Shown: positions 9,811 to 30,208 of the stretch, piece by piece | How positions within the stretch are numbered: the first letter of the stretch is position 1 | How the letters are laid out: each line of letters opens with the position of its first letter | From: a virus | Length of the DNA: 34,660 bases | Virus record (IMG/VR): IMGVR_UViG_3300017720_000026 | Direction: 5' to 3' (one strand) | Program-made: the position numbers and the translations under genes | The notes under the pieces: model-generated | Databases searched by the model: none | Seen by the model: the letters and a program-made list of their open reading frames with translations, nothing else | What the model was told of the DNA's origin: nothing

Positions 9811-9841
9811 ATTTTAAAAAGACCAAACCATAACTGGTTTG
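9811..9841 (-). terminator. Terminator-shaped hairpin plus U-tract in the late leader
   Basis: Minus-strand sequence CAAACCA-GTTA-TGGTTTG (7-bp stem, tetraloop) followed by GTCTTTTTAAAAT. It lies 18 nt upstream of the first late ATG. The stem is A/T-rich and weak. Confidence 0.3.
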
Positions 9842-9953
9842 CATACTTAAGTATTCTTAAGATGTGAAGATAAGTTATTTGTTTAAATTCTTAAAGGTTA
9901 ACTTCTTAAAGTTTAACTTTGATGTTCTTAAGTATCAACCTCTTTATAGCTTT

Positions 9954-9982
9954 ATTATATCATATTTATAACCTAAAGTCAA
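9954..9982 (-). promoter_or_regulatory. Near-consensus sigma70-type promoter for the leftward (structural/late) operon
   Basis: Minus strand reads TTGACT (9982..9977), a 17-nt spacer, then TATAAT (9959..9954). A weaker TTGATA-17-TAAACT lies downstream at 9938..9910. Confidence 0.5.
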
Positions 9983-10039
9983 TAGCTTCTTAGGATTTCT
10001 TTAGAAGTACCCCGCCTGTCCTGAAAAGTCAAGAGTTAT

Positions 10040-10067
10040 TTTACTATGGTTTAGTTATTTATGTAAT
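10040..10067 (+). promoter_or_regulatory. Weak sigma70-like promoter candidate for the rightward arm
   Basis: TTTACT (10040..10045), a 16-nt spacer, then TGTAAT (10062..10067). Confidence 0.25.
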
Positions 10068-10261
10068 TCTTAGGTGGTCCAAATTGCTTCCCATGTGGGC
10101 ATGAGGGTAGAACAGGAATGCTGGGTTGGCTATGGGCCCCTCCCCGTGCCTCCTCAGGCCCACAAATGACCCCACTGGGCGTGTGGTTTTCCTGAGACTA
10201 CCTGAGAATTCCTGTGGAAATGAGAAAAAAAGAATACCTGAGTGTGGTTGTCAGGTATTTC

Positions 10262-10275
10262 CTGGGACATCCCAG
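10262..10275. promoter_or_regulatory. Palindrome site A: CTGGGA-CA-TCCCAG (2-nt spacer variant)
   Basis: Perfect inverted repeat read directly, 9 nt upstream of the sigma54-like element. Confidence 0.7.
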
Positions 10276-10369: not shown

Positions 10370-10384
10370 ATGGGATGATCCCAT
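10370..10384. promoter_or_regulatory. Palindrome site B: ATGGGAT-G-ATCCCAT
   Basis: Perfect 7+1+7 palindrome followed by AAAATAA. It lies 27-75 nt upstream of the candidate starts of the first early ORF. Confidence 0.7.
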
Positions 10385-10459: not shown

Positions 10460-11056
10460 ATGCATAACGTTGAAAACATCAATAAAGCTTTACGCCAAGC
10501 GGTTCATTCGGATGCTAAACACGCTGAGAACTTGGTCATGGAGCATTACCTGCCCATGTTTGAAATCATCCAGGCGGAGACCGGCGGAGCATGGCCGGAA
10601 AAGTCCCTCACTAAAAAGATGGTGGAGAATAGCGGAGTTCTCACGGACATGTTCGTATTTCTCACGCCGGAGCAGCGTTCTGAGTTTGCCAGGGATTGCA
10701 AATTTGTGAAGGAGAATTTTGATCCTGTAGTAGATGAAGCCCTGGCGAACGGATGGCGCAAACTGAGCGCAATTCGGAAGGCTATCCAGAAGGCTCAGAA
10801 GGCCGAGGAAGCAACCGAGGAGGTGGCCGAGGAAGCTGAGGAAGTAACCGAGGAAGCAACCGAGGAAGCAACCGAGGAAGCAACCGAGGAAACGGAAACA
10901 AAACCCCTGGAAGATGTAGACTATGTAGCGGTAATCGCTGCATTGCTTGCCGAGGCTCAACAGAACGGATTAGATCCCAAGAAGATTGCATCAAAAGCAC
11001 TCGCGGAAATAGCGGACCCCAACCCTCTGGAAATTCCTGAGGCATTCCGCCGCTAG
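10460..11056 (+). CDS. Highly acidic early protein with an EEATEE repeat (function unknown; DNA-mimic candidate)
   Basis: First ORF of the rightward arm. The start is uncertain (TTG 10412, ATG 10415 or ATG 10460); 10460 has AAAGGA upstream. The product has the E/D-rich stretch AEEATEEVAEEAEEVTEEATEEATEEATEETE. Confidence 0.6.
   Translation: MHNVENINKALRQAVHSDAKHAENLVMEHYLPMFEIIQAETGGAWPEKSLTKKMVENSGVLTDMFVFLTPEQRSEFARDCKFVKENFDPVVDEALANGWRKLSAIRKAIQKAQKAEEATEEVAEEAEEVTEEATEEATEEATEETETKPLEDVDYVAVIAALLAEAQQNGLDPKKIASKALAEIADPNPLEIPEAFRR
10808..10900 (+). repeat. Degenerate 12-nt tandem repeat (gaagcaaccgag) inside the acidic-protein gene
   Basis: Three perfect consecutive copies at 10853..10888, flanked by diverged copies (gaggtggccgag, gaagtaaccgag, gaaacggaaaca). 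Confidence 0.9.
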
Positions 11057-11827: not shown

Positions 11828-11842
11828 CTGGGACCGTCCCAG
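11828..11842. promoter_or_regulatory. Palindrome site C: CTGGGAC-C-GTCCCAG
   Basis: Perfect 7+1+7 palindrome, 3 nt after the upstream stop and exactly 18 nt before ATG 11861. Context: aaaCCTGGGACCGTCCCAGAAAAttggagg. Confidence 0.8.
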
Positions 11843-11860
11843 AAAATTGGAGGTAAAACC

Positions 11861-11989
11861 ATGACTAAAACCGCGAGATCATATGACGAGGCTATCGAAT
11901 TGTTACGACTAAAAGATGAACAGAAGCAAGGTAAAAAAGGAGCTAGACAATGGACAAGAAATTTGGTATGGTGGATGTCGTCGCACTAG
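11861..11989 (+). CDS. Hypothetical 42-aa protein
   Basis: GGAGGT RBS. MTKTARSYDEAIELLRLKDEQKQGKKGARQWTRNLVWWMSSH. It overlaps the next micro-ORF by 40 nt. Confidence 0.4.
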   Translation: MTKTARSYDEAIELLRLKDEQKQGKKGARQWTRNLVWWMSSH

Positions 11990-12781: not shown

Positions 12782-12979
12782 ATGAGATGTAAAATTTGTG
12801 ACGCTAAACTAAAGGACGGAGAATTACTTAAGCGTGATCTGTTCACAGGTTTACCTCTTGACACATGCGGAAAGTGCATGGGTTCAATAGGTGAGGCGGT
12901 AGCGGAGGACTTTGAGTACATAGACGATGTTAATATTATCTCAAAGATTCCGCTTGACAATGAGGAGAATGATCTATAG
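12782..12979 (+). CDS. Small zinc-ribbon-like protein (65 aa) with an acidic tail
   Basis: CKICDAK...TCGKCMG (CxxC-x21-CxxC) with an acidic C-terminus. Confidence 0.6.
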   Translation: MRCKICDAKLKDGELLKRDLFTGLPLDTCGKCMGSIGEAVAEDFEYIDDVNIISKIPLDNEENDL

Positions 12980-12982
12980 AAT
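12954..12982 (+). promoter_or_regulatory. Near-consensus sigma70-type promoter (middle/replication operon)
   Basis: TTGACA (12954..12959), a 17-nt spacer, then TAGAAT (12977..12982). It overlaps the stop codon of 12782..12979 and fires into the 220-nt intergenic leader. Confidence 0.5.
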
Positions 12983-13039: not shown

Positions 13040-13166
13040 ATTCTTAAGACTGAGAGTGTCATGGGGGGAACCTAGCACTAGGTGAGCGAGACCTCATAGC
13101 ACAAAGGCCTTACCTCTCTACCTTGTGTGGAGGCCGTACAGGGGTGACACTCTCAACCTTAAGAAT
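13040..13166 (+). repeat. Imperfect 22-bp inverted repeat enclosing 83 nt; putative structured 5' leader RNA or processing site
   Basis: attcttaagACtgagagtgtca (13040..13061) against tgacactctcaACcttaagaat (13145..13166): 20 of 22 positions pair. The interior is GC-rich with local hairpins at 13078..13099 and 13106..13135. Confidence 0.85.
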
Positions 13167-13168
13167 AT

Positions 13169-13183
13169 CTGGGATGGTCCCAT
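13169..13183. promoter_or_regulatory. Palindrome site D: CTGGGA-TGG-TCCCAT
   Basis: It directly follows the long inverted repeat and lies exactly 18 nt before ATG 13202. An A6 run and GGAAGGAAGG RBS follow. Confidence 0.75.
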
Positions 13184-13201
13184 AAAAAAGGAAGGAAGGT
13201 T

Positions 13202-13375
13202 ATGTCTACCAAGAACAAGAGGCGGTCTTCTCCAAAGAATCGGAGGAATCCAGAGAAGGTTGTGATGGATAAGTACTATCACCCCAAAGCCTTCAGGTCC
13301 CGCAAGCGTACCCTGTCTGCTACTGATGCGGATAAGGAGATCAAGGAATACATGAGAGGTGAGCATGACTCGTAA
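13202..13375 (+). CDS. Small basic protein (57 aa, below ORF-track cutoff)
   Basis: Hand translation: MSTKNKRRSSPKNRRNPEKVVMDKYYHPKAFRSRKRTLSATDADKEIKEYMRGEHDS. Strong purine-rich RBS. Confidence 0.5.
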   Translation: MSTKNKRRSSPKNRRNPEKVVMDKYYHPKAFRSRKRTLSATDADKEIKEYMRGEHDS

Positions 13376-13923: not shown

Positions 13924-14151
13924 ATGAAAGCACAGACTAAACTTTTAATGGATCATTTTCAGGGTGGTCGTTCGATCTCTAACTACGAGGCCCGTGATCT
14001 CTATCGGATCGCCAGTCTACCTCGTAGGATCAGTGACCTTGAAGAAATGGGGATAGTCATTACCCGACAACGGAAGGTAGACCCCACGGGGAGACGTTAT
14101 GTTCGCTATTCAATGCCCACCTCTAATCAACTAAAGGAGAACTATCTATGA
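13924..14151 (+). CDS. Small winged-helix / HTH DNA-binding protein
   Basis: 75 aa. ...GRSISNYEARDLYRIASLPRRISDLEEMGIVI... is typical of short phage wHTH proteins. AAGGAG RBS. Confidence 0.65.
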   Translation: MKAQTKLLMDHFQGGRSISNYEARDLYRIASLPRRISDLEEMGIVITRQRKVDPTGRRYVRYSMPTSNQLKENYL

Positions 14152-14522
14152 TTACCGAAGGTACAGTTGCATTTTCAAACCTCGCTGAGACTGAGCGTTA
14201 CAATGGACAGGACACGGGCAAGTATTCCATCGTCCTCACTCTGGAACCTGACGAGGCGGCGAAGCTGGCCGAGACAGGGGTGAAGCTGAAGGAGTACAAG
14301 AACCAGCCCCAGCGCAAGTTTGTAACCAAGTTCCCTGGCTTCTCCGTCCTTGACGCTGACGGTGAGTCCATTGCCAAGTTCATCCCATATGGTTCTAGGG
14401 TGCGGGTAATGTGGGAACCCAGCAAACCACACCCTACTCACGGTGTTGCTCCGTACTTCAAGAAGATCAAGGTACTGGAGATGGCAGAGGGTGGTGACGG
14501 TGCAGACGACGAGGACTTTTAA
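14148..14522 (+). CDS. ssDNA-binding protein (T7 gp2.5-like, short)
   Basis: 124 aa, directly upstream of primase-helicase. OB-like N-terminus (GTVAFSNLAETERYNGQDTGKYSIVLTL). Acidic C-terminus ending in Phe (GGDGADDEDF), as in T7 gp2.5. Confidence 0.65.
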   Translation: MITEGTVAFSNLAETERYNGQDTGKYSIVLTLEPDEAAKLAETGVKLKEYKNQPQRKFVTKFPGFSVLDADGESIAKFIPYGSRVRVMWEPSKPHPTHGVAPYFKKIKVLEMAEGGDGADDEDF

Positions 14523-16156
14523 TGCTCCAGTCTAACTTCATAAGCAAGGCACCCTGCCCCTCCTGTCGTAGTAACGGAGAAGATAAGACGGGGGATAACC
14601 TCGCAGTCTACGATGACGGGCATGGGTACTGCTTTAAGTGCGGTCATATTGAGAGGGACGGGGGTGCAACTCCCCCTCCCACTGAAAACCTGGGACGGTC
14701 CCAGAAAACGAGAGGATTGGAAATGTCCGGCACATCAGGACCCATCAAGGATAGAAATATATCTCAACGAATAGTCGAGAAGTTTGGGGTAACTCTTGAG
14801 GACGACAAGCATCACTACCCCTACTATGACAAGGACACTGGCAACCTAGTGGGAACCAAGGTCCGTAATGTAAATGCAAAAGATTTTTATACCACCGGAA
14901 CACTGGAAAACACTGGCTTGTTTGGTATGAGCCACTGGGCCAGCGGTGGTAAGTTCATCACGGTCACGGAGGGGGAACTAGATGCTCTCGCCGTGGCCGA
15001 GATGTTCGACGGCAAGTGGCCCGTGGTCAGCATCAAACGGGGTGCCTCCTCCGCATCCAAAGACATCAAGGAGAACCTTGAGTGGCTGGAGACATTCGAT
15101 AAGGTGGTCATCTGTTTTGACAACGATGCCGCTGGACAGAAGGCCGCTGATGAGGTGGTCTCTCTGTTCTCTCCCAACAAGGCTAAGGTAGTACGTCTGC
15201 CCATGAAGGACGCCGCCGATATGCTGACGGCAGGGAGGGTGCAGGAGTTCGTCAAGTGCTGGTGGGACGCTAAGGAATACAAGCCAGCAGGAGTGGTCTC
15301 GCTGTCCGACGAGGTATGTTGGGATGCTTTTGTCACCCGTGGCAAGGCAGAGATCATACCCTTCCCTTCCACCTTCGGTACTCTCAACAAGATGATGAAC
15401 GGTGGCATGGCCGCTGGTGAGGTCACGGTGATAGGTGCCTTGACCTCCGTAGGTAAGACTACCTTCGTCACCAACCTACTCTATGGTATGTACAAGGAGA
15501 CCAACCGTAGGATCGGAGCGGTGTTCCTTGAGGCATCCATAGGTGAGATTACGGAGAACGTAGTGGGTGTAGTGGGTGGCACCAATATCAAGGTGATACC
15601 TGAGGAGGAGCGGGACTACAGTTCGTACCGCCCTCACTATGAGGAACTACAGGAGACCGACAGGATACACCTTGACGACCATGCCGGAGCCTCAGACATC
15701 GAGGACTTGTTCTCTCGTATGAGGTATCTAATCAAGGGTATGGACTGTGAAGTGTTGATTCTTGATCCACTACAGGCGGCAGTGCAGTCCAATGAGAACG
15801 GGATGATCGACTCCTTTATGGACAGGTGCCTGAAGCTGGCCAAGGAAACCAATGCGGCCATCATCATCGTGTCACACCTACGCAAGCCCAGCGTTAAGGA
15901 CCCTCACGATGTCAACGAGTACGACATGAAGGGGTCCGGTTCGATCAATCAGATCGCATTCAATACCATACTCCTGAGCAGGGACAAGATGTCGGAGGAC
16001 GACTACGCTAGGAACTGTACCAAGGTGCAGCTAGTGAAGTGCCGCCGCACGGGACGCACGGGACACGCTGGATGGCTGTACTATGAGGACGATACCTCCC
16101 GTATGGTAGCGGGTGTGGCACCTGAGGTACAGGAGGTGGCCCATGAAGAGTTCTAA
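14522..16156 (+). CDS. Bifunctional DNA primase-helicase (T7 gp4-like)
   Basis: Zinc finger CPSC-x21-CFKC, TOPRIM VICFDNDAAGQKAA, Walker A GALTSVGKTTF, Walker B VLILDPLQ, and an acidic C-terminus ending in Phe (VAHEEF). Confidence 0.9.
   Translation: MLQSNFISKAPCPSCRSNGEDKTGDNLAVYDDGHGYCFKCGHIERDGGATPPPTENLGRSQKTRGLEMSGTSGPIKDRNISQRIVEKFGVTLEDDKHHYPYYDKDTGNLVGTKVRNVNAKDFYTTGTLENTGLFGMSHWASGGKFITVTEGELDALAVAEMFDGKWPVVSIKRGASSASKDIKENLEWLETFDKVVICFDNDAAGQKAADEVVSLFSPNKAKVVRLPMKDAADMLTAGRVQEFVKCWWDAKEYKPAGVVSLSDEVCWDAFVTRGKAEIIPFPSTFGTLNKMMNGGMAAGEVTVIGALTSVGKTTFVTNLLYGMYKETNRRIGAVFLEASIGEITENVVGVVGGTNIKVIPEEERDYSSYRPHYEELQETDRIHLDDHAGASDIEDLFSRMRYLIKGMDCEVLILDPLQAAVQSNENGMIDSFMDRCLKLAKETNAAIIIVSHLRKPSVKDPHDVNEYDMKGSGSINQIAFNTILLSRDKMSEDDYARNCTKVQLVKCRRTGRTGHAGWLYYEDDTSRMVAGVAPEVQEVAHEEF
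14690..14704. promoter_or_regulatory. Palindrome site E: CTGGGAC-G-GTCCCAG, inside the primase-helicase gene
   Basis: Perfect 7+1+7 palindrome. It shares aaaCCTGGGAC.GTCCCAGAAAA with site C and lies exactly 18 nt before the in-frame ATG 14723, with GAGAGGA between. Confidence 0.8.
14723..16156 (+). CDS. Predicted internal-start isoform lacking the zinc finger (gp4B-like, 477 aa)
   Basis: In-frame Met68 is preceded by the same palindrome / A-run / SD cassette, at the same spacing, as two independent gene starts. T7 gp4B initiates at Met64, just after the zinc-binding domain. Confidence 0.35.
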   Translation: MSGTSGPIKDRNISQRIVEKFGVTLEDDKHHYPYYDKDTGNLVGTKVRNVNAKDFYTTGTLENTGLFGMSHWASGGKFITVTEGELDALAVAEMFDGKWPVVSIKRGASSASKDIKENLEWLETFDKVVICFDNDAAGQKAADEVVSLFSPNKAKVVRLPMKDAADMLTAGRVQEFVKCWWDAKEYKPAGVVSLSDEVCWDAFVTRGKAEIIPFPSTFGTLNKMMNGGMAAGEVTVIGALTSVGKTTFVTNLLYGMYKETNRRIGAVFLEASIGEITENVVGVVGGTNIKVIPEEERDYSSYRPHYEELQETDRIHLDDHAGASDIEDLFSRMRYLIKGMDCEVLILDPLQAAVQSNENGMIDSFMDRCLKLAKETNAAIIIVSHLRKPSVKDPHDVNEYDMKGSGSINQIAFNTILLSRDKMSEDDYARNCTKVQLVKCRRTGRTGHAGWLYYEDDTSRMVAGVAPEVQEVAHEEF

Positions 16157-16319
16157 AGAAGAGGGGGTGGGGATAGCAGGGACAATGGACCAGGATGTTC
16201 CCGTTGGGATGTTCAAGTGTAACTACTGTGGCTCTGTCCATGAGACCCCTGAGGTAGCCAAGGCAGTACCTATGCAGTTCTGGTGCAGTAAAGATTGCTG
16301 GGAGAAGGACAATGCCTAA
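16143..16319 (+). CDS. Small zinc-ribbon-like protein (58 aa)
   Basis: AGGAGG RBS. ATG 16143 lies inside the end of the helicase gene. Contains CNYCGS...CSKDCW. Confidence 0.5.
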   Translation: MKSSKEEGVGIAGTMDQDVPVGMFKCNYCGSVHETPEVAKAVPMQFWCSKDCWEKDNA

Positions 16320-16758
16320 AGTACCTGCTAGAAATCCTTATGATAGAAAACATCATTCAAGGCTGAGATCAAGAAGGGACTCTTATATTTTAAGAAAGAC
16401 AGGAGGTACGTGTGAGTTGTGTAAAGATCACTGGCCTTCGGACATACTTTGTTTTCATCATCTTAATCCCGAAGATAAAGAGTTTGGTTTGGATGTAAGA
16501 AAATGGAGAGCTAAATATTTAACTAATGTCTTGAAGGAAGCTGATAAGTGTGCTATCTTATGTATGAACTGTCACGCTCTAGAACACAAAGCTCTAAACA
16601 GAGGTGAGACTTTAATCAATGACCCAGACGCTTATCTTAGATATAGAAACCACCGCTTTACAAAACAGCCAGACCTCTTCGATAGAGCGGATATGGATGA
16701 TAGGAACGATGGACCTAGAGACGAAGATCAAGAAGAGTTTCCTTACGCCTTCGTTTAG
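16312..16758 (+). CDS. HNH endonuclease (homing-endonuclease-like)
   Basis: CELC...LCFHHLNPEDKEFG...CMNCHALEH is a classic HNH/beta-beta-alpha-Me motif. GC is much lower than in the flanking genes. The 3' 140 nt overlap the DNA polymerase start in another frame. Confidence 0.85.
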   Translation: MPKVPARNPYDRKHHSRLRSRRDSYILRKTGGTCELCKDHWPSDILCFHHLNPEDKEFGLDVRKWRAKYLTNVLKEADKCAILCMNCHALEHKALNRGETLINDPDAYLRYRNHRFTKQPDLFDRADMDDRNDGPRDEDQEEFPYAFV

Positions 16759-18364
16759 TGACGCAACAGAGATACAGGAGTACATCAATGGATATTCTAC
16801 TGTGGTTGGTCATAACATTATTGGGTTTGACAGTCCTGTAATGAACGACCTGTTGGGAATTACACTGCCTAACGTAGTTGATACCCTTGTTTTGTCCCGA
16901 CTGTACAACCCTCAGATGGAGGGAGGACATTCACTCAGGGCATGGGGGGAGAGACTAGGGTTTCGGAAGGGAGATCACGACGACTGGTCTACCCTGTCGG
17001 ATGAGATGATTGAGTACTGCGAGAGAGACTTGGACGTTACTGCCAAGCTGTACACTGAACTAACTGAAAAGCTGGAGGAGTTTCAGGGAGAGTCCATAGA
17101 ACTAGAACATGAAGTGCAACGTATTATAACTAAGCAGGAGAACAATGGATGGGAACTAGATGTTGAACGAGCGTTTGATATACAGGCAAAACTTAAGCAG
17201 CGAAGCATGGAAGTGGAGAGGGAGGTTCATAAAAGGTTCACGCCTCTTGCGGTCTTCGATAAGGAGGTCACTCCCAAATATAACAAGGACGGAAGCCTTA
17301 GTGTGGTTGGGCTTAAGTTTCTTGGGGATCGGTATACTGATGTGGCTGGTCCATTTAGTAGAGTTTCTTTTCCCGAATTTAATCTAGGGTCAAGACAACA
17401 GATAGCCCGTCACCTACAGTTCTTTGGGTGGAAGCCTAAGTTGTTTACTGAGAAGGGACAGGCCATCGTAGACGAAGGAGTTTTATCCAGGGTTGATATA
17501 CCTGAGGCCAAGCTAATCGCAGAGTATCTACTGATACAGAAGAGAACGGCACAGGTGCAGTCATGGATAGAAGCGGTAGAGGAGGATGGTAGGGTCCACG
17601 GTAGGGTCAACCCTATCGGTGCAGTGACGGGGCGTATGACACACAGCAGCCCCAACATGGCACAGGTCCCCGCCTCTTACTCTCCATACGGTACTGAATG
17701 CCGTGAGTGTTGGACAGTACCAAAAGGTTACAGGCTTGTGGGTATTGATGCCGCTGGCCTGGAGTTGAGAATGTTAGCCCACTACATGAATGATAAGGAG
17801 TACACAAATGAAGTCACAAATGGAGATGTCCATACAGCCAATCAAAAAGCTGCTGGACTTGCAACAAGAGACCTCGCTAAAACTTTTATCTATGCTTTCC
17901 TCTACGGCGCAGGAGACGCCAAAATCGGAACTATTGTTGGAGGTTCTAAGCGAGACGGAGCAAAACTTAAGGAGAAGTTTCTCTCTAACACACCGTCTCT
18001 TCGAGATTTACGCGAAAGGGTTTCACGATCTGCGCGGAGAGGATACCTCAAAGGACTCGACGGAAGAAAACTAGTACTGCGGAGTGAACACGCCGCCTTG
18101 AATACACTTCTACAGTCAGCAGGTGCAATAATAATGAAGAAGTCCTTGACGATACTTGATGAGTATGCTACAATACATAATATAGAGTACAAGTTTGTAG
18201 GTAATATTCACGATGAGTTTCAAGTGGAGGTCAAAGAGGACCAAGCAGAGAAGCTAGGCTGGCTGGCCGTAGAGTGTATCAAGGCTGCTGGAGATCGGAT
18301 GTCGCTTAAATGCCCACTGGACGGAGAGTACAAGGTGGGACAATCGTGGGCAGAGACCCACTAA
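16619..18364 (+). CDS. Family A DNA polymerase with 3'-5' exonuclease domain (T7 gp5-like)
   Basis: Exo I LILDIETT, Exo II GHNIIGFD, Exo III YCERDLDVT; pol motif A VGIDAAGLELRMLAH, motif B RDLAKTFIYAFLYGAG, motif C GNIHDEFQVEV. Confidence 0.9.
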   Translation: MTQTLILDIETTALQNSQTSSIERIWMIGTMDLETKIKKSFLTPSFSDATEIQEYINGYSTVVGHNIIGFDSPVMNDLLGITLPNVVDTLVLSRLYNPQMEGGHSLRAWGERLGFRKGDHDDWSTLSDEMIEYCERDLDVTAKLYTELTEKLEEFQGESIELEHEVQRIITKQENNGWELDVERAFDIQAKLKQRSMEVEREVHKRFTPLAVFDKEVTPKYNKDGSLSVVGLKFLGDRYTDVAGPFSRVSFPEFNLGSRQQIARHLQFFGWKPKLFTEKGQAIVDEGVLSRVDIPEAKLIAEYLLIQKRTAQVQSWIEAVEEDGRVHGRVNPIGAVTGRMTHSSPNMAQVPASYSPYGTECRECWTVPKGYRLVGIDAAGLELRMLAHYMNDKEYTNEVTNGDVHTANQKAAGLATRDLAKTFIYAFLYGAGDAKIGTIVGGSKRDGAKLKEKFLSNTPSLRDLRERVSRSARRGYLKGLDGRKLVLRSEHAALNTLLQSAGAIIMKKSLTILDEYATIHNIEYKFVGNIHDEFQVEVKEDQAEKLGWLAVECIKAAGDRMSLKCPLDGEYKVGQSWAETH

Positions 18365-18367
18365 TTT

Positions 18368-18382
18368 CTGGGACGATCCCAG
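18368..18382. promoter_or_regulatory. Palindrome site F: CTGGGA-CGA-TCCCAG
   Basis: Starts 4 nt after the polymerase stop codon (18362..18364). It lies 16 nt before ATG 18399 with an AGGAGAG RBS between. Confidence 0.75.
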
Positions 18383-18398
18383 AATATAGGAGAGTATA

Positions 18399-19289
18399 AT
18401 GGAAAAGAACATGGATACCCTAGTCGAAGACATCTATACCCTCATGGTCAACAGAAACACTGGCGATGGTGTGGACGTTGAGGAGGAAATAGACAAATTC
18501 GGAGAGGCCATGAAGGAAATCATGCGTAAGGAGTTCCTTCCAGGTGGACGTAGGGACGGTAGGAAACTACGCCTTTCCTCAGTGGGTAAAAATGATCTTA
18601 TCCAATGGTTCTCCTACAACGGCTACAGGGGTGAGCGTATCCAACCCCACACTCTTATCAAGTTTATGTATGGTCACATGATTGAGGAGATGATCCTGCT
18701 TCTTGTCCGTCTCACCGGACACAAGGTAACGGATGAACAGAAGGAAGTGTCCGTTGGTGGAGTCAGGGGTCACATGGACTGTAAGATTGATGGCACTGTG
18801 GTTGATGTTAAGTCCACTACTAAGTTTGGTTTAATGAAGTTTAACGATAGAACCCTAGCCGCAAAAGATGACTTTGGTTATGTCGATCAGATCAAAGCAT
18901 ACGCCCATGCGGAGGGAGATCGTAAGTGGGCATGGCTTGCTATGGACAGAGACAGCGGTAAGCTGGCTGTTCTTGAGTATGACTTGGACAACACAAGTGA
19001 TCCTATGTACGAGCATTTCTCAGGGGATATTGAGGAAAGGATTGAGCATGTAAAAAAGTCTGTAAAGCAGGAAGACCGACCTTCAAGATGCTATTCTCCC
19101 GAAGAGGATGGGAAGTCAGGCAACTTAAAACTGTGTACTACCTGCTCTTATTGCCAGTACAAAAAGTTTTGTTATCCAGAAGTCCGCGCATTTCACACTG
19201 GCTCAGGTCCAAAGTTTTTAACTACCGTAGTAAACGTCCCTAAGAACCGTCAGGGTAAACCTTATCCTGAAATTAACCTAGATGAATAG
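18399..19289 (+). CDS. PD-(D/E)XK nuclease with a C-terminal Cys cluster (Cas4/RecB-like exonuclease)
   Basis: GHMDCKIDGTVVDVKS matches D...(D/E)xK. The C-terminal CTTCSYCQYKKFC (C-x2-C-x2-C-x5-C) suggests a metal or Fe-S site. Confidence 0.7.
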   Translation: MEKNMDTLVEDIYTLMVNRNTGDGVDVEEEIDKFGEAMKEIMRKEFLPGGRRDGRKLRLSSVGKNDLIQWFSYNGYRGERIQPHTLIKFMYGHMIEEMILLLVRLTGHKVTDEQKEVSVGGVRGHMDCKIDGTVVDVKSTTKFGLMKFNDRTLAAKDDFGYVDQIKAYAHAEGDRKWAWLAMDRDSGKLAVLEYDLDNTSDPMYEHFSGDIEERIEHVKKSVKQEDRPSRCYSPEEDGKSGNLKLCTTCSYCQYKKFCYPEVRAFHTGSGPKFLTTVVNVPKNRQGKPYPEINLDE

Positions 19290-19827: not shown

Positions 19828-20005
19828 ACAGTTCATTCGGAGACTTGCAGCTATTACTGATCCTGAATTTCTTTGTGACTTTCTGGACATTACCAGTGAA
19901 GATATCCTTGAGAGATTTGAGGACATAGTTGAGGACACTATGGATAACCTGCGACGAGAGTTTGATGTTGACATTCAAGATGAAGAGGAGTATAATAATG
20001 AATAG
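19811..20005 (+). CDS. Hypothetical acidic protein (64 aa)
   Basis: GGAGGA RBS. MPLSNEQFIRRLAAITDPEF... I preferred this internal start to the track's 19766. Confidence 0.5.
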   Translation: MPLSNEQFIRRLAAITDPEFLCDFLDITSEDILERFEDIVEDTMDNLRREFDVDIQDEEEYNNE

Positions 20006-20294
20006 GAATGAAGTTCTTAGAGAAGCTCAGACTATCTTAAATGGCCAACGTGCCAACGACTATGGAGATGCTTACGACAATCACAAACGTATTGCTGCTC
20101 TATGGAACACATACCTAGACGAAGAGTACGGACTAAAACCAGAGGACGTTGCAGTTATGATGATACTTCTTAAGGTAGCTAGGTTAGTTCATAAGCATAC
20201 TTCGGATAGCTTTGTGGACATAGCAGGGTATGCTGCTCTAGCAGAAGAAATGTCCAGTACTGAAAATGTTATTGAGTTTACCCCTGAAAGGTAG
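19998..20294 (+). CDS. Conserved phage protein (DUF6378-like)
   Basis: MNRNEVLREAQTILNGQRANDYGDAYDNHKRIAALWNTYL...DVAVMMILLKVARL fits a widespread phage family of unknown function. GAGGAG RBS. Family name from memory. Confidence 0.55.
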   Translation: MNRNEVLREAQTILNGQRANDYGDAYDNHKRIAALWNTYLDEEYGLKPEDVAVMMILLKVARLVHKHTSDSFVDIAGYAALAEEMSSTENVIEFTPER

Positions 20295-22845: not shown

Positions 22846-23027
22846 TATGCTTTCCTCTTCTTTTTCTTCTTAACTCTATTGTCCGTCCCTCTCCAGGTTC
22901 CCCCCATTCTTTTGTATTCCTTAGCAGCCCAAGCGTTAGCATAGGCACTGGGGTACACTTTAAATTTCTTCTTGGCTTTGGCCTTAGCTCTGGACCACTT
23001 GCCGGGATCATTAGGTATCGAAGCCAT
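22845..23027 (-). CDS. Small polybasic protein (60 aa)
   Basis: ...KVYPSAYANAWAAKEYKRMGGTW...KKKKKRKA. I recognise the SAYAN-WA-K-Y motif from hypothetical proteins of marine viruses. Confidence 0.6.
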   Translation of the reverse strand: MASIPNDPGKWSRAKAKAKKKFKVYPSAYANAWAAKEYKRMGGTWRGTDNRVKKKKKRKA

Positions 23028-24685
23028 TACTGCTGCCCCTCTTCTTCTCTTGTTAAAGGTCTTCCTACTCTTGACGGTCCAAAAATAACAGCTTCTTTAA
23101 ATAACCCACCAAAATCTCTAGCGGTTGGTTGTAAGTTAGCGACTGCTTGGGCTCTTCCCCACTGTTCTCTTGTTTTAAAACCAGCGGGTATCTTTCCTGA
23201 AAGATTTACACCGGGAATCTTTTTATAATTTTCTATAGCCTTTTGCTCTGCCTGTTGTTTTTTCTTTTGAAATTTATTTTTAGCTCTAACTTGAGTAGCC
23301 GTAAGTTTTTTACCCTTAACTAAGTCATAGACAATAGGTTCTGAAACATTCATGTATCTGTCTGCTCCAGGTAACTTACCTATTTCATCTGTTATTTTTC
23401 TTACTCTTTCTGGAAGCCTTCCTAAATCATGTTCATCGTTAACAATTGTAGTTACTTGTCCTCTTTTATTTATAGCAGACATGTAATTTACACCGCCTAA
23501 TTCCCAAGCATCTGATTTGCCCGATCCAGTTATAATTGCAGGTTTTCCTTTAAGGACTGCATCTGGATTTAAAACATTTACTCCTGCTTTTTCTAACTTA
23601 TTTAAAAATGTTTTGTCGGAGTTATAGCCTTTTCCACCAGAAAAAACTCTTTCTTTAATGTTGTTTAAACTTAGATTACCATACACTTTTGCTGACATTC
23701 CAGGGTCTAACTCTCCTGCTGATCCCGTGTGAACTTTTCTTATGTTCATTTGATAATTTTTTTTAGGATTCATTCCTATGTCTGGATGAGTTTTTATCTT
23801 GTTAAAAATCTCTTCAACTCCTTCTCTTCCAATACCAGTAGGAACTAAATCTTCTACCGTATCAAAGTAATCTTTAGAATTAAAAGATTTAAAAGTTTTA
23901 ACATGGTCAATCTCATCTATATTTCTTAAGAAACCTTTGTCAGTTCCGTACTGGTTAATCATAGAACGTGATTGATTAAGCTGCCCCATTGCTTTTTTAC
24001 CGGCAGCGTTAGCGGTAGACCTTAATTGTTGAGCGTTTTTAGTTAACTTTTCAAACTCTTTTGTTTCTACAGGTATTGTTTTACCCTTGTCTTTTCCACT
24101 TTTAACTTTTCTATATTTTCCTGTGTACGCTTTGCCTGTTTCCTTCATTGTTTTTATTTGTTTTTCTAAAGGTTTTAACTGAGTAGTTACTTTTTCAGAT
24201 ACTCTTAAGGCTTCTCTAGCTGCCCTTTGATCTGCTGCACTAATATTAAATTCATTTTGAATAGCTCTGCTTTCAGGACCATACCTGGCTTGAGCTAGAT
24301 TTCTAAGTCCTTCTGGAAGAGTTTTTCCAAAAGCACCTACCCGTCCTAACTCACCTCCTGGCGCATAAAAACCAGGAATATCGTTTCTTAAATTAGTAAA
24401 GGCTTTTTGTGCAGTTCTAGTGACACTAGCTCCAGGTACAAAAGGTAACAAACCAACAGCCCCAAGAGCTATGTTTGTAACTGAAGGTTCTTTGTAAATA
24501 GCTACAGCATCAGCGGCTGCTCCTATTATATCTCCAACTACAGGCAGAGGAGCAGAGAGAAGAGCCATACGATCTAAAAAAGACATGTTGTCCCATACAT
24601 CCTGAGATACATTAGCTGCTTTACTAAACATACCTTGCATTTCTTCAGCTTGTTTTTTAAATATGGGAAGTGGTTCTTCAGCCAT
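23027..24685 (-). CDS. Large structural-module protein (552 aa), putative internal/ejected virion protein
   Basis: Long ORF with a TAATG overlap to the upstream gene. No enzymatic motif recognised. Confidence 0.6.
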   Translation of the reverse strand: MAEEPLPIFKKQAEEMQGMFSKAANVSQDVWDNMSFLDRMALLSAPLPVVGDIIGAAADAVAIYKEPSVTNIALGAVGLLPFVPGASVTRTAQKAFTNLRNDIPGFYAPGGELGRVGAFGKTLPEGLRNLAQARYGPESRAIQNEFNISAADQRAAREALRVSEKVTTQLKPLEKQIKTMKETGKAYTGKYRKVKSGKDKGKTIPVETKEFEKLTKNAQQLRSTANAAGKKAMGQLNQSRSMINQYGTDKGFLRNIDEIDHVKTFKSFNSKDYFDTVEDLVPTGIGREGVEEIFNKIKTHPDIGMNPKKNYQMNIRKVHTGSAGELDPGMSAKVYGNLSLNNIKERVFSGGKGYNSDKTFLNKLEKAGVNVLNPDAVLKGKPAIITGSGKSDAWELGGVNYMSAINKRGQVTTIVNDEHDLGRLPERVRKITDEIGKLPGADRYMNVSEPIVYDLVKGKKLTATQVRAKNKFQKKKQQAEQKAIENYKKIPGVNLSGKIPAGFKTREQWGRAQAVANLQPTARDFGGLFKEAVIFGPSRVGRPLTREEEGQQ

Positions 24686-27630
24686 TAATCTATATCTACC
24701 CTCATGTTTTCTTTAAATTTCTTTTCGGCATCTTTTTCCATGCCACCAAAAATCCACTGGTATGCTAACTTACCTACAATCGGAAGAGGTTTAATCATAC
24801 GTGCTATTGCCTCTTCGTAGTTAGGGTTTTTCTTTGCCATCTCTTGTGGAAGCTCAAAGAGAGACTCAATTAAATTAGACGGAGGAGCTACGATGTTAGC
24901 AAGGCCCTCTACAACTTTACCCTGAGAAAAATATCTTTCAGTAGAGTACTTGTTTATTCCATAGACTCCAAGGACTCCAAAGATTGCCCTGTCTGGAATA
25001 CTTTCTACGTCTACCTCTTTGCCTTGTAAGATATCCTTTATGACAGACGAAGTAACATTAGAAGCCGCAAGGTAGGTTGTAAGAGCAGCTAAGTTTTTAA
25101 CACCCTCAACTCGTTTGCCCTTAGTCAATAACTTCTGACCTACTTCTCTTCTTAAAATATCGTACTGTTTTAAGGTAAAAGATTTGAGCATGTAGAGCAG
25201 TCTGGTCTTTTGACCTCTTAGGTATGCTTCGGGTAGTTCGCTAAGAGTTACGGGTTGAAACTCCGTAAGGTCAGAAAATGCCATAACTTTAACATGGTCA
25301 GTTATCTGTTTATTTTTTAAGTCAAGAACAAGATCATTAAATTCATCACCAAAAAACTGTCCGTACTTTTCTCTAAGTTTAGCTATTCCTTTTTCGGACT
25401 TAGCCCAACCCATGTTTTTTCTTAGAGAAGCGTTAATTAAAGTTTCTTTACCCAGGCGATCTAATCTTTTAAACCCTGAGTATTTTAAACCTGCATTTAA
25501 AGCACTGGCAAATTTACTGGGGTCAGAAAACTCTCTGGATATTTCTTCTGCTAATCCAATGTCATCTAAAGTTATCCGTTGTTTTCCAACTATAGATCGG
25601 GCAAGTCCTATTGCAGTATTTACAGGTCCCTTAATTGCAGCGGCACTTCCCAAGTCCCCTATCTGAGTTATGGCCGAAAGAGGATTGGCAATAGTTCCTC
25701 CATATCCTAGGTCCCTTAAAACTTTAACGGCACTACTAACTGTTTTTTCACCATGAACAAAACGAGCCTCTAGTAATTCCTGAATTAAATCTTGGTTTTC
25801 AGCCTTTAAAGTTCCGTTACGAATTTCCGGTGCAAGTAGGTCAGCTATGCCGCCCCTTAAATCTTCATCAGTATTGTGACCCGCACCACGCCCAGTGTTC
25901 TTTAGTTCTCCATAGAAAAACCTATTCTTTTCAATATCGTTTATGGCATTTCTAATGTACTGCGTAAGTGCTACCTCAGAAGGATTATACAAATCCATGT
26001 CATTGGGAGATATTTGACCCACAGTTCTCCGTCCTCCTGATGGACCACCTATGTCTTTTCTGCTGGCCGCAAACACGGGTTTACCTTTATGCTCAAAAAC
26101 TTTTCTACCACTTAAAACATTCTCAACAATCTTAGCCGTAGTATCATTAGATAACTCGCTGGGACTTACTCCCTTTATTTTAGCGTATTTTCTTACTTCG
26201 TTAGTGTAAAGACCCTTGCTAATTTTAGAGTAGTCTTTAATTGACCTAGGCAGATAGTTTTCTATACCATCAAACTCTCTTCCTATTTTAGCGTAGTCAT
26301 CTTGAATTGTTTTTAAAACTTTAACTACAGCATCAAAGGCTTCATTAGCTTCTGGAGCAACCCTACTCAACTGGTTACGAGCTAAGTCAAACTCTCCATT
26401 AAACAACAGACGATCTATATCCTGCTTAATGGCTGGTTGTAACCTAGTCATTGCAGCCATAAAGGGCTCTACTAATTTTAAAGTTTCATTTGTTCGTATG
26501 GCAGCAGTAGCTTCAAATCTACCAAGCCTGTCTGCAATACCGGAGTGTACGTTGTAAATTCTTGTTTTTAAAGAACCAAAAATTTTATCGGCTGTCTTAG
26601 ATACCTGACGTAATTTTGATTCATCGTTACGTAAAGCAGTGTTTACAGCATCATCTGAGTCTGGCTTTACTTTAACGTATGGATTTCTTTTGGCTACCTG
26701 TGCTGCTCTATCTACTTTAGCTTGACTTAACCCCAGGTCCTCTATGATCTTAGGAACATCAGCTTCCGTTACGGTTTCTCCTTCATCTACTTTTTTAGCT
26801 ATGGCGTTATCTACTTTATTTATTGTTCTATTGGCTAACTTTTGTGTTACTTTATCTACACCAAACTTAACTGTAACTCCACCTAACGCACCTACCCCTG
26901 CCATCTTAGCAGTTTCTACGGGGTCTACTTCTCCAGTGGTCCTAAATTGTTCAGAGGCAGAGTAGGAACCTCCAATACCTGCTCCTATTCCAGCAGCCGC
27001 ACGATACGTCTGACCCGCTGGAAGTGCTATAGTAGGAGATGCAACAGCGCCTAGTACTTTTCCTGTTGTTATTGCTCCTGTATCTTGCTTCATCATTTCT
27101 GGGCTGTAGTCTTGCATCAATTCTCTTTCTCGCGCCCTTAAAATCATTTCTCTGCGTTCTTCTGAAGAGGCTTCATTAAACCCTTCTCCATATGCTTGTT
27201 CAGGAGATATGTAAGAAAATCCTGAAAAAGGAATAAACATAGAAGACTTAGAAAAATCAAAATCAAATCTTCCTAGTGGAAAATAAGACTCAATAATATC
27301 TCCAAGGCTTGCTTCGGGAGTTAAAGTAGAATCCCATCCGTACTTTATTTGTTGATAAATCTCATCATGTTTTACTTTTTTAAGTTTAGTACCATCGTTT
27401 ATTAACTCGTCTCCTACTTCTGCTCCGTCTCTTCTAAGTGCAGGATAGGTATCAATGTCTTCTTGAGTTATGACATAGCCTTTTTCTCGCCGGTCTCCTT
27501 CTTGTGAAAACACACGATTAAGTTTAGTACCATTTTCAGACAAAGTATCCCCAGGCAACGCTCCGTCTTTCTGTAAATTGGGGTTGCTAAGGATGTCTTG
27601 AGCGGTTATTGTGTATGCTTCGTCAGCCAC
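24685..27630 (-). CDS. Very large virion protein (981 aa), putative internal core protein (gp16-position analogue)
   Basis: Largest ORF of the structural arm. It has an N-terminal 35-aa tandem duplication. No catalytic motif recognised. Confidence 0.6.
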   Translation of the reverse strand: MADEAYTITAQDILSNPNLQKDGALPGDTLSENGTKLNRVFSQEGDRREKGYVITQEDIDTYPALRRDGAEVGDELINDGTKLKKVKHDEIYQQIKYGWDSTLTPEASLGDIIESYFPLGRFDFDFSKSSMFIPFSGFSYISPEQAYGEGFNEASSEERREMILRARERELMQDYSPEMMKQDTGAITTGKVLGAVASPTIALPAGQTYRAAAGIGAGIGGSYSASEQFRTTGEVDPVETAKMAGVGALGGVTVKFGVDKVTQKLANRTINKVDNAIAKKVDEGETVTEADVPKIIEDLGLSQAKVDRAAQVAKRNPYVKVKPDSDDAVNTALRNDESKLRQVSKTADKIFGSLKTRIYNVHSGIADRLGRFEATAAIRTNETLKLVEPFMAAMTRLQPAIKQDIDRLLFNGEFDLARNQLSRVAPEANEAFDAVVKVLKTIQDDYAKIGREFDGIENYLPRSIKDYSKISKGLYTNEVRKYAKIKGVSPSELSNDTTAKIVENVLSGRKVFEHKGKPVFAASRKDIGGPSGGRRTVGQISPNDMDLYNPSEVALTQYIRNAINDIEKNRFFYGELKNTGRGAGHNTDEDLRGGIADLLAPEIRNGTLKAENQDLIQELLEARFVHGEKTVSSAVKVLRDLGYGGTIANPLSAITQIGDLGSAAAIKGPVNTAIGLARSIVGKQRITLDDIGLAEEISREFSDPSKFASALNAGLKYSGFKRLDRLGKETLINASLRKNMGWAKSEKGIAKLREKYGQFFGDEFNDLVLDLKNKQITDHVKVMAFSDLTEFQPVTLSELPEAYLRGQKTRLLYMLKSFTLKQYDILRREVGQKLLTKGKRVEGVKNLAALTTYLAASNVTSSVIKDILQGKEVDVESIPDRAIFGVLGVYGINKYSTERYFSQGKVVEGLANIVAPPSNLIESLFELPQEMAKKNPNYEEAIARMIKPLPIVGKLAYQWIFGGMEKDAEKKFKENMRVDID

Positions 27631-30207: not shown

Positions 30208-30208
30208 G

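What the first reader, a model, noticed from the sequence alone, without database searches (positions are those of the whole stretch)
14690..14725. Gene-start cassette embedded inside the primase-helicase gene predicts a zinc-finger-less short isoform (T7 gp4A/gp4B analogue)
The palindrome, A-run and GAGAGGA SD precede in-frame Met68 (ATG 14723). The 18-nt spacing is identical to that at two independent gene starts (11861 and 13202). Met68 lies just after the CxxC-x21-CxxC zinc finger and before the TOPRIM domain. In T7, gene 4 makes full-length gp4A and also gp4B from an internal start at Met64, directly after the zinc-binding domain. Here the internal start is flagged by a regulatory-looking element, which suggests the isoform ratio could be controlled.
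Basis: partly seen in the sequence, partly recalled or inferred. Interest (0 to 1): 0.7.

Follow-up and report, generated by a model that had tools for sequence, protein, structure and literature searches.

The report
Internal start inside phage primase-helicase gene
A marine phage's T7-like primase-helicase gene carries, in frame, a full copy of the phage's own gene-start signal in front of Met68, so it very probably makes a second, shorter protein without the zinc finger, as phage T7 does; this has not been shown experimentally.

Summary
At 14690-14725 lies CTGGGACGGTCCCAG-AAAAC-GAGAGGA-TTGGAA-ATG, in frame at Met68 of a 544-aa T7 gp4 homologue (E 2.6e-67). The dyad TGGGAY(N0-1)RTCCCA with A-rich flanks occurs six times in the window, all in the + (replication) gene cluster. 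Four copies lie 16-18 nt before an SD-preceded ATG.

In about 45 of 67 non-redundant contexts in relatives the element leads a true gene. Only the primase-helicase copy lies inside a long ORF.

Met68 is kept in all 19 representative lineages down to about 58% identity, within a hypervariable linker. The excess of SD cores over what amino acids and codon usage predict is the strongest in the whole gene exactly here (13 observed against 3.9 expected; rank 1 of 537 columns). T7 Met64 aligns six residues upstream, in the same zinc-finger/primase linker.

I conclude that a 477-aa (52.9 kDa) zinc-finger-less isoform is likely (about 0.6). The SD-ATG is old. The dyad was added or kept in three of four sublineages.

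What reads the dyad is unknown. An mRNA hairpin operator is favoured and a DNA operator is not excluded. Control of the isoform ratio is inference only.

The parts
14522..16156 (+). Full-length primase-helicase ORF (544 aa, 60.2 kDa), a T7 gp4 homologue
   Evidence: (E 2.6e-67 to T7 gp4, PDB 6n7i).
14555..14641 (+). Cys4 zinc-binding domain core (C12, C15, C37, C40). It is present only in the long product.
   Evidence: Aligned to the T7 zinc-binding domain.
14684..14709 (+). Embedded cassette core: GAAAAC flank, dyad C-TGGGAC-G-GTCCCA-G (core 14691-14703), and AAAAC run.
   Evidence: Predicted RNA hairpin of -8.8 kcal/mol. Conserved in the L001-L005, L007-L016 and L080 groups.
14710..14716 (+). 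Internal Shine-Dalgarno sequence GAGAGGA, 6 nt before the ATG.
   Evidence: SD-core excess is rank 1 of 537 columns.
14723..16156 (+). Predicted short isoform ORF from Met68 (477 aa, 52.9 kDa), lacking the zinc finger.
   Evidence: Met68 aligns to T7 residue 74, and T7 Met64 aligns to K62.
11829..11863 (+). Cassette copy, then SD GGAGG, then ATG 11861 (42-aa gene).
   Evidence: A recombination breakpoint lies right after the SD in L001 and L002.
13170..13204 (+). Cassette copy, then SD, then ATG 13202 (57-aa Arg-rich protein).
18369..18401 (+). Cassette copy, then SD AGGAGAG, then ATG 18399 (Cas4-like exonuclease). It lies directly after the DNA polymerase stop codon.
   Evidence: The position is orthologous in all four sublineages.
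10371..10383 (+). Dyad copy in the control region upstream of the first + strand gene, with no adjacent ATG (class II).
10263..10274 (+). 12-bp variant TGGGAC|ATCCCA inside the longer palindrome ATTTCCTGGGACATCCCAGGAATT, in the control region (class II).

Best explanation
The stretch is a genuine copy of a phage-wide gene-start cassette: A-rich flank, dyad TGGGAY(N0-1)RTCCCA, KAAAA, SD, ATG. It is written in frame into the flexible linker between the zinc-binding domain and the RNA-polymerase (primase) domain of a T7 gp4-type primase-helicase.

Ribosomes that load on the internal SD (GAGAGGA, 6-nt spacer) start at Met68. They make a 477-aa protein with the primase catalytic core and the helicase but no zinc finger, alongside the 544-aa full-length protein. 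This is what T7 does from Met64 of gene 4.

Shown here:
- the element, its frame, its family and its non-random placement;
- conservation of the Met;
- codon-level selection for an SD;
- homology to T7 gp4.

Inferred:
- that initiation actually occurs;
- that the short form behaves like T7 gp4B, i.e. as a helicase-competent subunit that lacks template-directed priming.

The SD-ATG is the older layer, found across lineages down to about 58% identity. The dyad is a later layer, restricted to phages that use the same dyad at the first cistron of their early and middle gene blocks.

I think the dyad most likely acts on the mRNA as a short hairpin just 5' of the SD, read by an unidentified sequence-specific factor. 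That would put the short isoform under the same control as the block-leading genes. This last step is a hypothesis.
For: - Element and statistics.
- Family behaviour: of 67 non-redundant contexts, about 45 are followed by SD+ATG 17-26 nt after TCCCA at true gene starts (at most 44 codons open in frame upstream). Only the primase-helicase copies have 74-91 open codons upstream.
- Met68 and SD conservation.
- Conditional codon test: 13 of 19 lineages carry AGGA, GGAG or GAGG against 3.9-4.0 expected (nominal P about 1e-6). Gene-wide this is rank 1 of 537 columns. Another conserved Met (Met234) also has an SD-like sequence, but that one is explained by its amino acids (15 observed against 12.4 expected).
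- Dyad codons GGA and TCC are kept in three lineages whose synonymous sites are largely randomised (37% and 25% identical codons for conserved Gly and Ser). The loop and flank residues change.
- In an unrelated ORF of L091 the same element, read in the same frame, gives the same peptide ENLGPSQKT. The nucleotides therefore dictate the peptide.
- T7 precedent: homology, annotation of 4A and 4B, and AGGAGGT 7 nt before Met64. The 56-kDa form lacks the zinc-binding domain and is made in equal amount (PMC2910064).
- For an RNA reading of the dyad: strict co-orientation with genes, narrow distance to the SD, asymmetric A-rich flanks, half-site spacing of 0 or 1 nt within one genome, and a predicted hairpin that leaves the SD unpaired.
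Against: - There is no protein, ribosome-profiling or transcript data.
- By anti-SD duplex energy alone the internal SD is unremarkable against the coding background (15th-25th percentile).
- E67-M68-x-G70 is conserved at the protein level, and E and G are shared with T7. The Met could therefore be partly structural.
- The lineages are related, so the nominal P values are inflated. The gene-wide rank is the safer statistic.
- The L017 group lacks the dyad in the gene. The L050-52 group and the groups at about 57% identity lack the Met.
- The stems never vary, so there is no covariation to support a hairpin.
- Perfect dyad symmetry (TGGGAY on both strands) and two copies in the promoter region with no nearby ATG fit a dimeric DNA-binding protein equally well.
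Confidence: 0.6

Rival explanations
1. The dyad is a double-stranded DNA operator for a dimeric regulator. Candidates are the winged-helix protein at 13924-14151 or the clade-specific first-gene product at 10460-11056. The copy in the gene regulates transcription into the distal replication genes. Internal initiation at Met68 may or may not also occur.
For: - Perfect dyad with TGGGAY half-sites on both strands, and invariant stems.
- Two copies in the divergent control region next to -35-like hexamers, one inside a 24-bp palindrome.
- An HTH_39 protein is encoded two genes upstream.
- A symmetric TTTTCTGGGATnATCCCAGAAAA sequence in intergenic DNA of Acidimicrobiales MAGs looks like a bacterial operator of the same type.
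- The first-gene family co-occurs with the dyad, also in the distant contig L121.
Against: - Half-site spacing is 0 or 1 bp within the same genome.
- The flanks are asymmetric and all copies are co-oriented with the genes.
- The tight 17-26 nt distance to ATGs has no rationale for an operator.
- No sigma-70 promoter can be placed so that the transcript would keep the SD.
- The HTH_39 gene is absent from two of the four dyad-bearing sublineages.
- The first-gene product has no DNA-binding fold match.
Confidence: 0.25
2. There is no second product. Met68 and the purine-rich codons are kept for protein reasons. The cassette copy is a scar, either of recombination at a cassette or of an ancient fusion of a separate zinc-finger gene with a primase-helicase gene.
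For: - Cassettes are recombination breakpoints: the window, L001 and L002 share the sequence up to the SD at 11829 and then carry different genes.
- The E-M-x-G motif is conserved at the protein level.
- SD energy alone is not unusual.
Against: - The SD excess beyond amino-acid needs is the strongest in the gene.
- SD+ATG is kept in lineages that never had the dyad.
- The dyad has survived roughly 20% protein divergence in a hypervariable linker with its exact consensus flanks.
- No relative among 80 loci has a split gene.
- In T7 the aligned position is Ser, so the Met is not a fold requirement.
Confidence: 0.2
3. The cassette is a transcription start (a promoter for an unrecognised polymerase or factor) or an RNA-processing site. 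The short isoform then arises from a separate, 5'-truncated mRNA rather than from internal initiation on the full-length message.
For: - Cassettes head gene blocks: 10371, 11829, 13170 and 18369.
- The hairpin shape (5-6 bp stem, 3-nt loop) resembles N4-type hairpin promoters (own knowledge).
- A 5' end in the A-run would leave a 13-18 nt leader that contains the SD.
Against: - No RNA polymerase gene was found by Pfam or PHROGs, and the 981-aa ORF has no hits.
- Consensus sigma-70 promoters are present at 12954-12982, 19968-19996 and 9982-9954, so host polymerase is used.
- The KAAAAT hexamer read as a -10 element would put the start inside or after the SD, and there is no -35.
- No nuclease candidate was identified.
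Confidence: 0.12
4. The element is a terminator for antisense (minus-strand) transcription through the replication cluster. Its position before ATGs is only a consequence of tight intergenic space.
For: - The terminator scan flags 14705-14689, 11843-11827 and 10385-10369 on the minus strand.
- An inverted copy followed by T6 sits at the end of the + cluster in L013 and L015.
Against: - The U-tracts are only 3-4 nt and interrupted, and the stems are 5-7 bp.
- It does not explain the invariant stem sequence, the copy inside a coding region, or the fixed distance to SD and ATG.
Confidence: 0.05

Closest known systems
Bacteriophage T7 gene 4 (gp4A 63 kDa and gp4B 56 kDa)
   Same: - It is a homologous protein (E 2.6e-67).
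- An in-frame internal ATG preceded by an SD lies in the linker between the zinc-binding domain and the primase catalytic domain. T7 has AGGAGGT 7 nt before Met64.
- The short product lacks only the zinc finger (PMC2910064).
   Different: - The start here aligns to T7 residue 74, not 64. The Met is therefore not positionally orthologous and probably arose independently.
- The start here is preceded by a dyad element shared with ordinary gene starts of the phage, which T7 lacks.
- The two products are demonstrated for T7 and only predicted here.
PeSL cassettes of T4-type phages (promoter-early stem-loops; PMC2839356, PMC4122927)
   Same: They are short conserved cassettes with a stem-loop at gene boundaries in the early region, repeated many times per genome, and sites of modular gene exchange. 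Here the breakpoints lie right after the SD of the 11829 cassette.
   Different: - PeSLs consist of a strong sigma-70 promoter plus a terminator stem-loop.
- Here no sigma-70 promoter fits, and the hairpin is followed by an A-run, not a U-run.
- As far as I know, PeSLs are not reported inside a coding gene in frame with an internal start.
Sequence-specific mRNA hairpin operators at phage translation starts (MS2 or PP7 coat protein with the replicase operator; lambda N with boxB as an RNA-hairpin reader) - own knowledge
   Same: A short hairpin of fixed sequence close to a ribosome-binding site, or in early transcripts, is recognised by a small phage protein.
   Different: - No binding protein has been identified here.
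- The hairpin lies upstream of the SD and does not sequester it.
- There are five to six copies per genome.
- The loop is a variable triloop or tetraloop, not a GNRA-like pentaloop, and no boxA was seen.
Internal translation start sites that give short isoforms of phage endolysins (PMC12203907, PMC4777826)
   Same: An in-frame internal SD+ATG yields an N-terminally truncated isoform that co-assembles with the full-length protein.
   Different: It is a different protein family and function, and no shared cis element upstream has been reported.

Membership tests
T7 gp4-type primase-helicase | N-terminal Cys4 zinc-binding domain | tested here: met
   C12, C15, C37 and C40, aligned to the T7 zinc-binding domain.
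T7 gp4-type primase-helicase | TOPRIM primase core followed by a DnaB/RecA-type helicase in one polypeptide | tested here: met
   Pfam Toprim_2 at 148-233 and DnaB_C at 282-519. End-to-end alignment to T7 gp4, E 2.6e-67.
gp4A/gp4B-type two-product gene | In-frame start codon in the linker between the zinc-binding and primase domains | tested here: met
   ATG 14723 is codon 68. T7 Met64 aligns to K62 and Met68 aligns to T7 S74.
gp4A/gp4B-type two-product gene | Shine-Dalgarno sequence at working distance, maintained by selection | tested here: met
   GAGAGGA plus a 6-nt spacer. SD-core excess of 13 against 3.9 expected, rank 1 of 537 columns.
gp4A/gp4B-type two-product gene | Two polypeptides actually made, with the short one dependent on the internal ATG | not testable with these tools
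   This needs Western blot, mass spectrometry or ribosome profiling.
Intrinsic terminator | G+C-rich hairpin followed by a U-run on the transcribed strand | tested here: not met
   On the + strand the hairpin is followed by an A-run. The minus-strand reading has only 3-4 interrupted U.
Sigma-70 promoter | -35 and -10 hexamers 16-18 bp apart, with a start site upstream of the SD | tested here: not met
   There is no -35 upstream of either candidate -10. With KAAAAT as the -10, the start site falls in or after the SD.
PeSL cassette (T4-type phages) | Strong sigma-70 promoter plus terminator stem-loop | tested here: not met
   Definition from PMC2839356.
PeSL cassette (T4-type phages) | Repeated at gene boundaries and used as recombination breakpoints | tested here: met
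   The window, L001 and L002 are identical through the cassette and SD at 11829, then carry different genes.
N4-type hairpin promoter | A cognate phage RNA polymerase that reads a 5-7 bp stem with a 3-nt loop | tested here: not met
   The hairpin shape is compatible, but no RNA polymerase gene was detected.
Any Rfam RNA family | Match at gathering threshold | tested here: not met
   0 matches in the whole window.
Lambda-type nut site (boxB) | 5-bp stem with a conserved GNRA-like pentaloop, and one or two sites per operon | tested here: not met
   The loop is 3-4 nt and variable, and there are 5-6 sites per genome. An Arg-rich 57-aa protein exists, but it also occurs in lineages without the dyad.

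The most novel reading that the evidence does not exclude
The dyad cassette is the operator of a previously undescribed phage post-transcriptional (or hairpin-reading) regulon. One unknown factor sets the expression of the leading cistrons of the replication blocks. The phage has copied that operator into a coding linker, so that the ratio of priming-competent to helicase-only subunits of its replicative hexamer changes on the same signal during infection.
Probability: 0.25. Interest if true: 0.75.

Novelty: new variant of a known kind. Interest (0 to 1): 0.55.

Why it matters
T7 has made two gene 4 products in equal amounts for forty years of study, yet the in vivo role of the short one is still described as unknown (PMC2910064).

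Finding that an unrelated marine phage lineage keeps an internal start in the same linker, at a different residue, argues that the zinc-finger-less subunit is selected for in its own right. It would not be an accident of T7.

Because the start here is tagged with the phage's own gene-start element, the ratio of the two forms may be adjustable. That gives a handle for testing what mixed hexamers are for.

The cassette is also a compact, sequence-specific cis element, shared by distantly related marine phages, for which no reader is known.

Tried and rejected
- **Rfam scan of the whole window:** no family matched.
- **Sigma-70 promoter reading of the cassette:** rejected. There is no -35, and the start site would fall in or after the SD.
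- **Intrinsic terminator on the + strand:** rejected, because an A-run follows the hairpin. The antisense terminator reading is weak.
- **Phage RNA polymerase or N4-like hairpin promoter:** no polymerase gene was found. The 981-aa ORF 24685-27630 has no Pfam, PHROG or PDB-sequence hit.
- **SD strength by anti-SD duplex energy against the coding background:** not discriminating (15th-25th percentile). I replaced it with a test conditional on amino acids.
- **Equivalent palindromes in the relatives at 57-66% identity:** none found. Those lineages have other repeated motifs that are not tied to gene starts.
- **Host identification by scanning 185,579 genomes for the 19-mer:** 90 scattered single hits. 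That is about what uniform composition predicts (my arithmetic: about 140), and no genome had many copies.
- **Identifying the factor by phyletic pattern:** the first-gene family (10460-11056) co-occurs with the dyad. It has only 37 uncharacterised marine homologues, an all-alpha AlphaFold model (pLDDT 75.8) and no Foldseek match in the PDB (best E 3.3).
- **Covariation analysis of the hairpin:** uninformative, because the stems never vary.
- **GenBank phages:** none is closer than 36% identity in this protein.
Full report
**What is in the sequence**

One search shows, on the + strand: GAAAAC (14684-14689), CTGGGACGGTCCCAG (14690-14704; core dyad 14691-14703), AAAAC (14705-14709), GAGAGGA (14710-14716), TTGGAA (14717-14722) and ATG (14723-14725).

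The ATG is codon 68 of ORF 14522..16156. The 544-aa product has:
- cysteines at 12, 15, 37 and 40;
- Toprim at 146-235 and DnaB_C at 282-519;
- an end-to-end alignment with T7 gp4 (E 2.6e-67).

The long and short products would be 60.2 and 52.9 kDa.

**The element is one member of a family**

Exact TGGGA-N3-TCCCA occurs five times in the window (10371, 11829, 13170, 14691, 18369), all in the + strand replication cluster. The expectation is 0.97 even when one mismatch is allowed, and there are no one-mismatch variants at all. A sixth copy with no central base (TGGGAC|ATCCCA) lies at 10263.

The window is a nearly complete marine podovirus-like genome of about 35-36 kb. Its structural genes are on the minus strand. 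No GenBank phage is closer than 36% identity in this protein.

**Behaviour of the family in relatives**

Eighty IMG/VR loci encode relatives at 57-99% identity. The dyad system exists in four sublineages at 78-99% identity: the window group, L005, the L007/L013/L014/L080 group and the L017 group.

The consensus is AAAWYC-TGGGAY-(0 or 1 nt)-RTCCCA-KAAAAY, followed by an SD and an ATG.

Among 67 non-redundant contexts:
- About 45 have SD+ATG 17-26 nt after TCCCA at true gene starts, with at most 44 codons open in frame upstream.
- The remainder lie in the control region ahead of the first + strand gene, or at the end of the cluster.
- Only the copies in the primase-helicase gene sit inside a long ORF (74-91 open codons upstream).

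The L007 group normally uses the 0-nt spacing, but it has the 1-nt form inside the primase gene.

The same element also occurs in contigs whose primase-helicase is only 32-36% identical (L091, L105, L116). It is also present in L121 (five copies in 8 kb) and in L096, neither of which shows a primase-helicase match.

**Is Met68 a start?**

- The Met is present in all 19 representative lineages down to about 58% identity. It lies in the stretch with the most indels and substitutions of the protein.
- Upstream, the encoded residues differ (KG, RG, KE, RE, KD, TE, RN, RT, RK), yet the nucleotides keep an AGG/GGA/GAG core 5-10 nt before the ATG.
- Duplex energy with the anti-SD is not unusual against the coding background, so I used a test conditional on the amino acids. 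Each lineage's six upstream codons were resampled from its own codon usage.
- The result was 3.9-4.0 lineages expected to carry AGGA, GGAG or GAGG, against 13 observed (nominal P about 1e-6).
- Run over all 537 codon columns, the same test ranks codons 67-69 first. The only other conserved Met with an SD-like sequence (Met234) is explained by its Lys-Asp codons (15 observed against 12.4 expected).

The lineages are related, so the rank is the safer statistic, not the P value.

Lineages without the Met (L050-52 and the groups at about 57% identity) mostly lack the SD. L061 and L065-69 are exceptions, where Glu-Asp codons produce one.

**Is the dyad in the gene under selection?**

- In the window, L005 and L007 groups the codons read xTG GGA nnn TCC CAx. 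The residues change at the loop (Arg, Pro, Ser) and at the flanks (Leu/Met, Gln/His), but Gly stays GGA and Ser stays TCC.
- Across the rest of the gene, only 37% of conserved Gly and 25% of conserved Ser keep the same codon in these three lineages.
- The A-rich flanks also match the intergenic consensus.
- In L091 the same element, read in the same frame at the end of an unrelated ORF, yields ...SENLGPSQKT. This shows that the peptide ENLGxSQK follows from the element rather than the reverse.
- The L017 group keeps SD+ATG but has no dyad in the gene, although it uses the dyad six times elsewhere.

The SD-ATG is therefore the older layer, and it does not depend on the dyad.

**Comparison with T7**

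T7 annotates 4A from 11565 and 4B from 11754 (codon 64), with AGGAGGT 7 nt upstream. In the HMMER alignment, T7 Met64 pairs with K62 of this protein and Met68 pairs with T7 Ser74. The two starts are thus in the same linker but at different positions, which points to convergence or drift of the start.

The T7 56-kDa form lacks the zinc-binding domain and is made in equal amount to the long form. It has helicase activity but no template-directed priming, and its in vivo role is stated to be unknown (PMC2910064).

In-frame Met codons with purine-rich upstream sequence are also seen in the linker of several distant T7-like genes (HTVC115P, the Limnohabitans phage, RHEph01, EcpYZU01) but not in others (ProddE, Pasto). 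In RHEph01 the deposited CDS starts 50 codons after the start of homology, at that linker Met. ProddE was annotated with A and B products by analogy.

**What reads the dyad?**

Not settled.

Readings that do not fit:
- A sigma-70 promoter: no -35, and the transcript would lose the SD.
- A + strand terminator: an A-run follows the hairpin.
- An N4-type hairpin promoter: there is no polymerase gene.
- Any Rfam family.

Consensus sigma-70 promoters elsewhere (12954-12982, 19968-19996, and 9982-9954 on the minus strand) indicate that host polymerase is used.

For an mRNA hairpin read by a factor:
- strict co-orientation with genes;
- the narrow distance to the SD;
- asymmetric flanks;
- tolerance of 0 or 1 central nucleotide;
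- a predicted 5-8 bp hairpin (-5.5 to -8.8 kcal/mol for the hairpin alone; centroid and isolated-hairpin values) that leaves the SD free.

For a DNA operator:
- exact dyad symmetry including Y/R at the inner positions;
- invariant stems;
- two copies near -35-like hexamers in the control region, one within a 24-bp palindrome;
- a similar symmetric sequence in intergenic DNA of Acidimicrobiales MAGs.

A scan of 185,579 genomes gave only chance-level scattered hits, so no host regulon was found.

The clade-specific first gene (10460-11056) co-occurs with the dyad, including in the distant L121. However, it has no recognisable fold. The winged-helix gene at 13924-14151 is patchy among dyad-bearing lineages.

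**Verdict**

I put it at about 0.6 pending protein evidence. That the cassette regulates the isoform ratio is plausible but only inferred.

In kind, this is a new variant of a known arrangement: an internal start in a gp4-type gene, with the added feature that the start carries the phage's own repeated gene-start element inside a coding linker.

Noticed in passing
window 11829-11860, compared with L001 7310 and L002 8179: The window, L001 and L002 are identical through the cassette and the SD (…TGGGACCGTCCCAgaaaattggaggt). Immediately afterwards they diverge into three unrelated small genes. The cassettes therefore act as breakpoints of modular gene exchange, as PeSLs do in T4-type phages.
   Followed up: partly
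L091 141-440: An unrelated 99-aa ORF ends with ...PETPSENLGPSQKTLKENRNV. The same cassette overlaps its 3' end in the same frame as in the primase linker (ENLGRSQKT).
   Followed up: partly
window 16312-16758 (+): An HNH endonuclease ORF (PHROG E 1.8e-18) sits between the primase-helicase and DNA polymerase genes and overlaps the first 140 nt of the listed polymerase ORF (16619..18364). Relative L212 has no such ORF there, so it looks like a mobile insertion, and the true polymerase start may be further downstream.
   Followed up: no
window 10460-11056 (+), repeats at 10803-10893: The first gene of the + cluster encodes an all-alpha protein with an acidic tandem repeat (EEATEE, 12-nt DNA period). 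The family has only 37 uncharacterised marine (TARA) homologues and no PDB fold match. It co-occurs with the dyad, also in the distant contig L121.
   Followed up: yes
window 9840-10070 and 13150-13168; L017 2950-2975; L007 4435-4458: CTTAAG, CCTAAG and CCTAGG-type hexamers (TTCTTAAG, TTCTTAGG) are repeated many times in the divergent control region. They recur just upstream of the cassette that precedes the Arg-rich small gene. This may be a second regulatory motif.
   Followed up: no
window 12954-12982 (+), 19968-19996 (+), 9982-9954 (-): Near-perfect sigma-70 consensus promoters (11/12, 12/12, and 11/12 with TG). The one at 19968 lies inside ORF 19929-20294. The one at 9982 faces the terminase-portal-capsid cluster.
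   Followed up: no
window 24685-27630 (-): A 981-aa ORF in the structural cluster has no Pfam, PHROG or PDB-sequence match. Its neighbours 23027-24685, 27633-28718, 28732-30237 and 30209-30991 have no PHROG match.
   Followed up: partly
L075 and L040 (relatives at about 61-64% identity): The 8-bp palindrome GTTTAAAC, usually as YGTTTAAACA, occurs 15 times in 17 kb of L075, inside and between genes. It is a different over-represented motif in a lineage that lacks the TGGGA dyad. L078 (AGTCCCTAA, 7 copies) and L029 (AGTCCGTAA, 4 copies) have their own motifs.
   Followed up: no
L131 1957, L138 1035, L194 2565, L199 1538 (Acidimicrobiales MAGs, about 70% G+C): A symmetric AT-rich sequence, TTTTCTGGGATnATCCCAGAAAA, occurs in intergenic DNA of four contigs. 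It looks like an operator for a bacterial regulator with the same half-site as the phage dyad.
   Followed up: no
L121 5590-5650: In this distant dyad-bearing phage, one cassette lies directly after the stop codon of the first gene and is followed at once by a strong intrinsic terminator (GGGTCGGGGCagaaatGCCTCGGCCC-T7). This arrangement would suit an antitermination signal.
   Followed up: no
L087 (Rhizobium phage RHEph01, JX483873) 201-351: The deposited primase/helicase CDS starts 50 codons after homology to the zinc-finger region begins, at a linker Met preceded by AAGGAA. The annotated protein therefore corresponds to a gp4B-like short form.
   Followed up: partly
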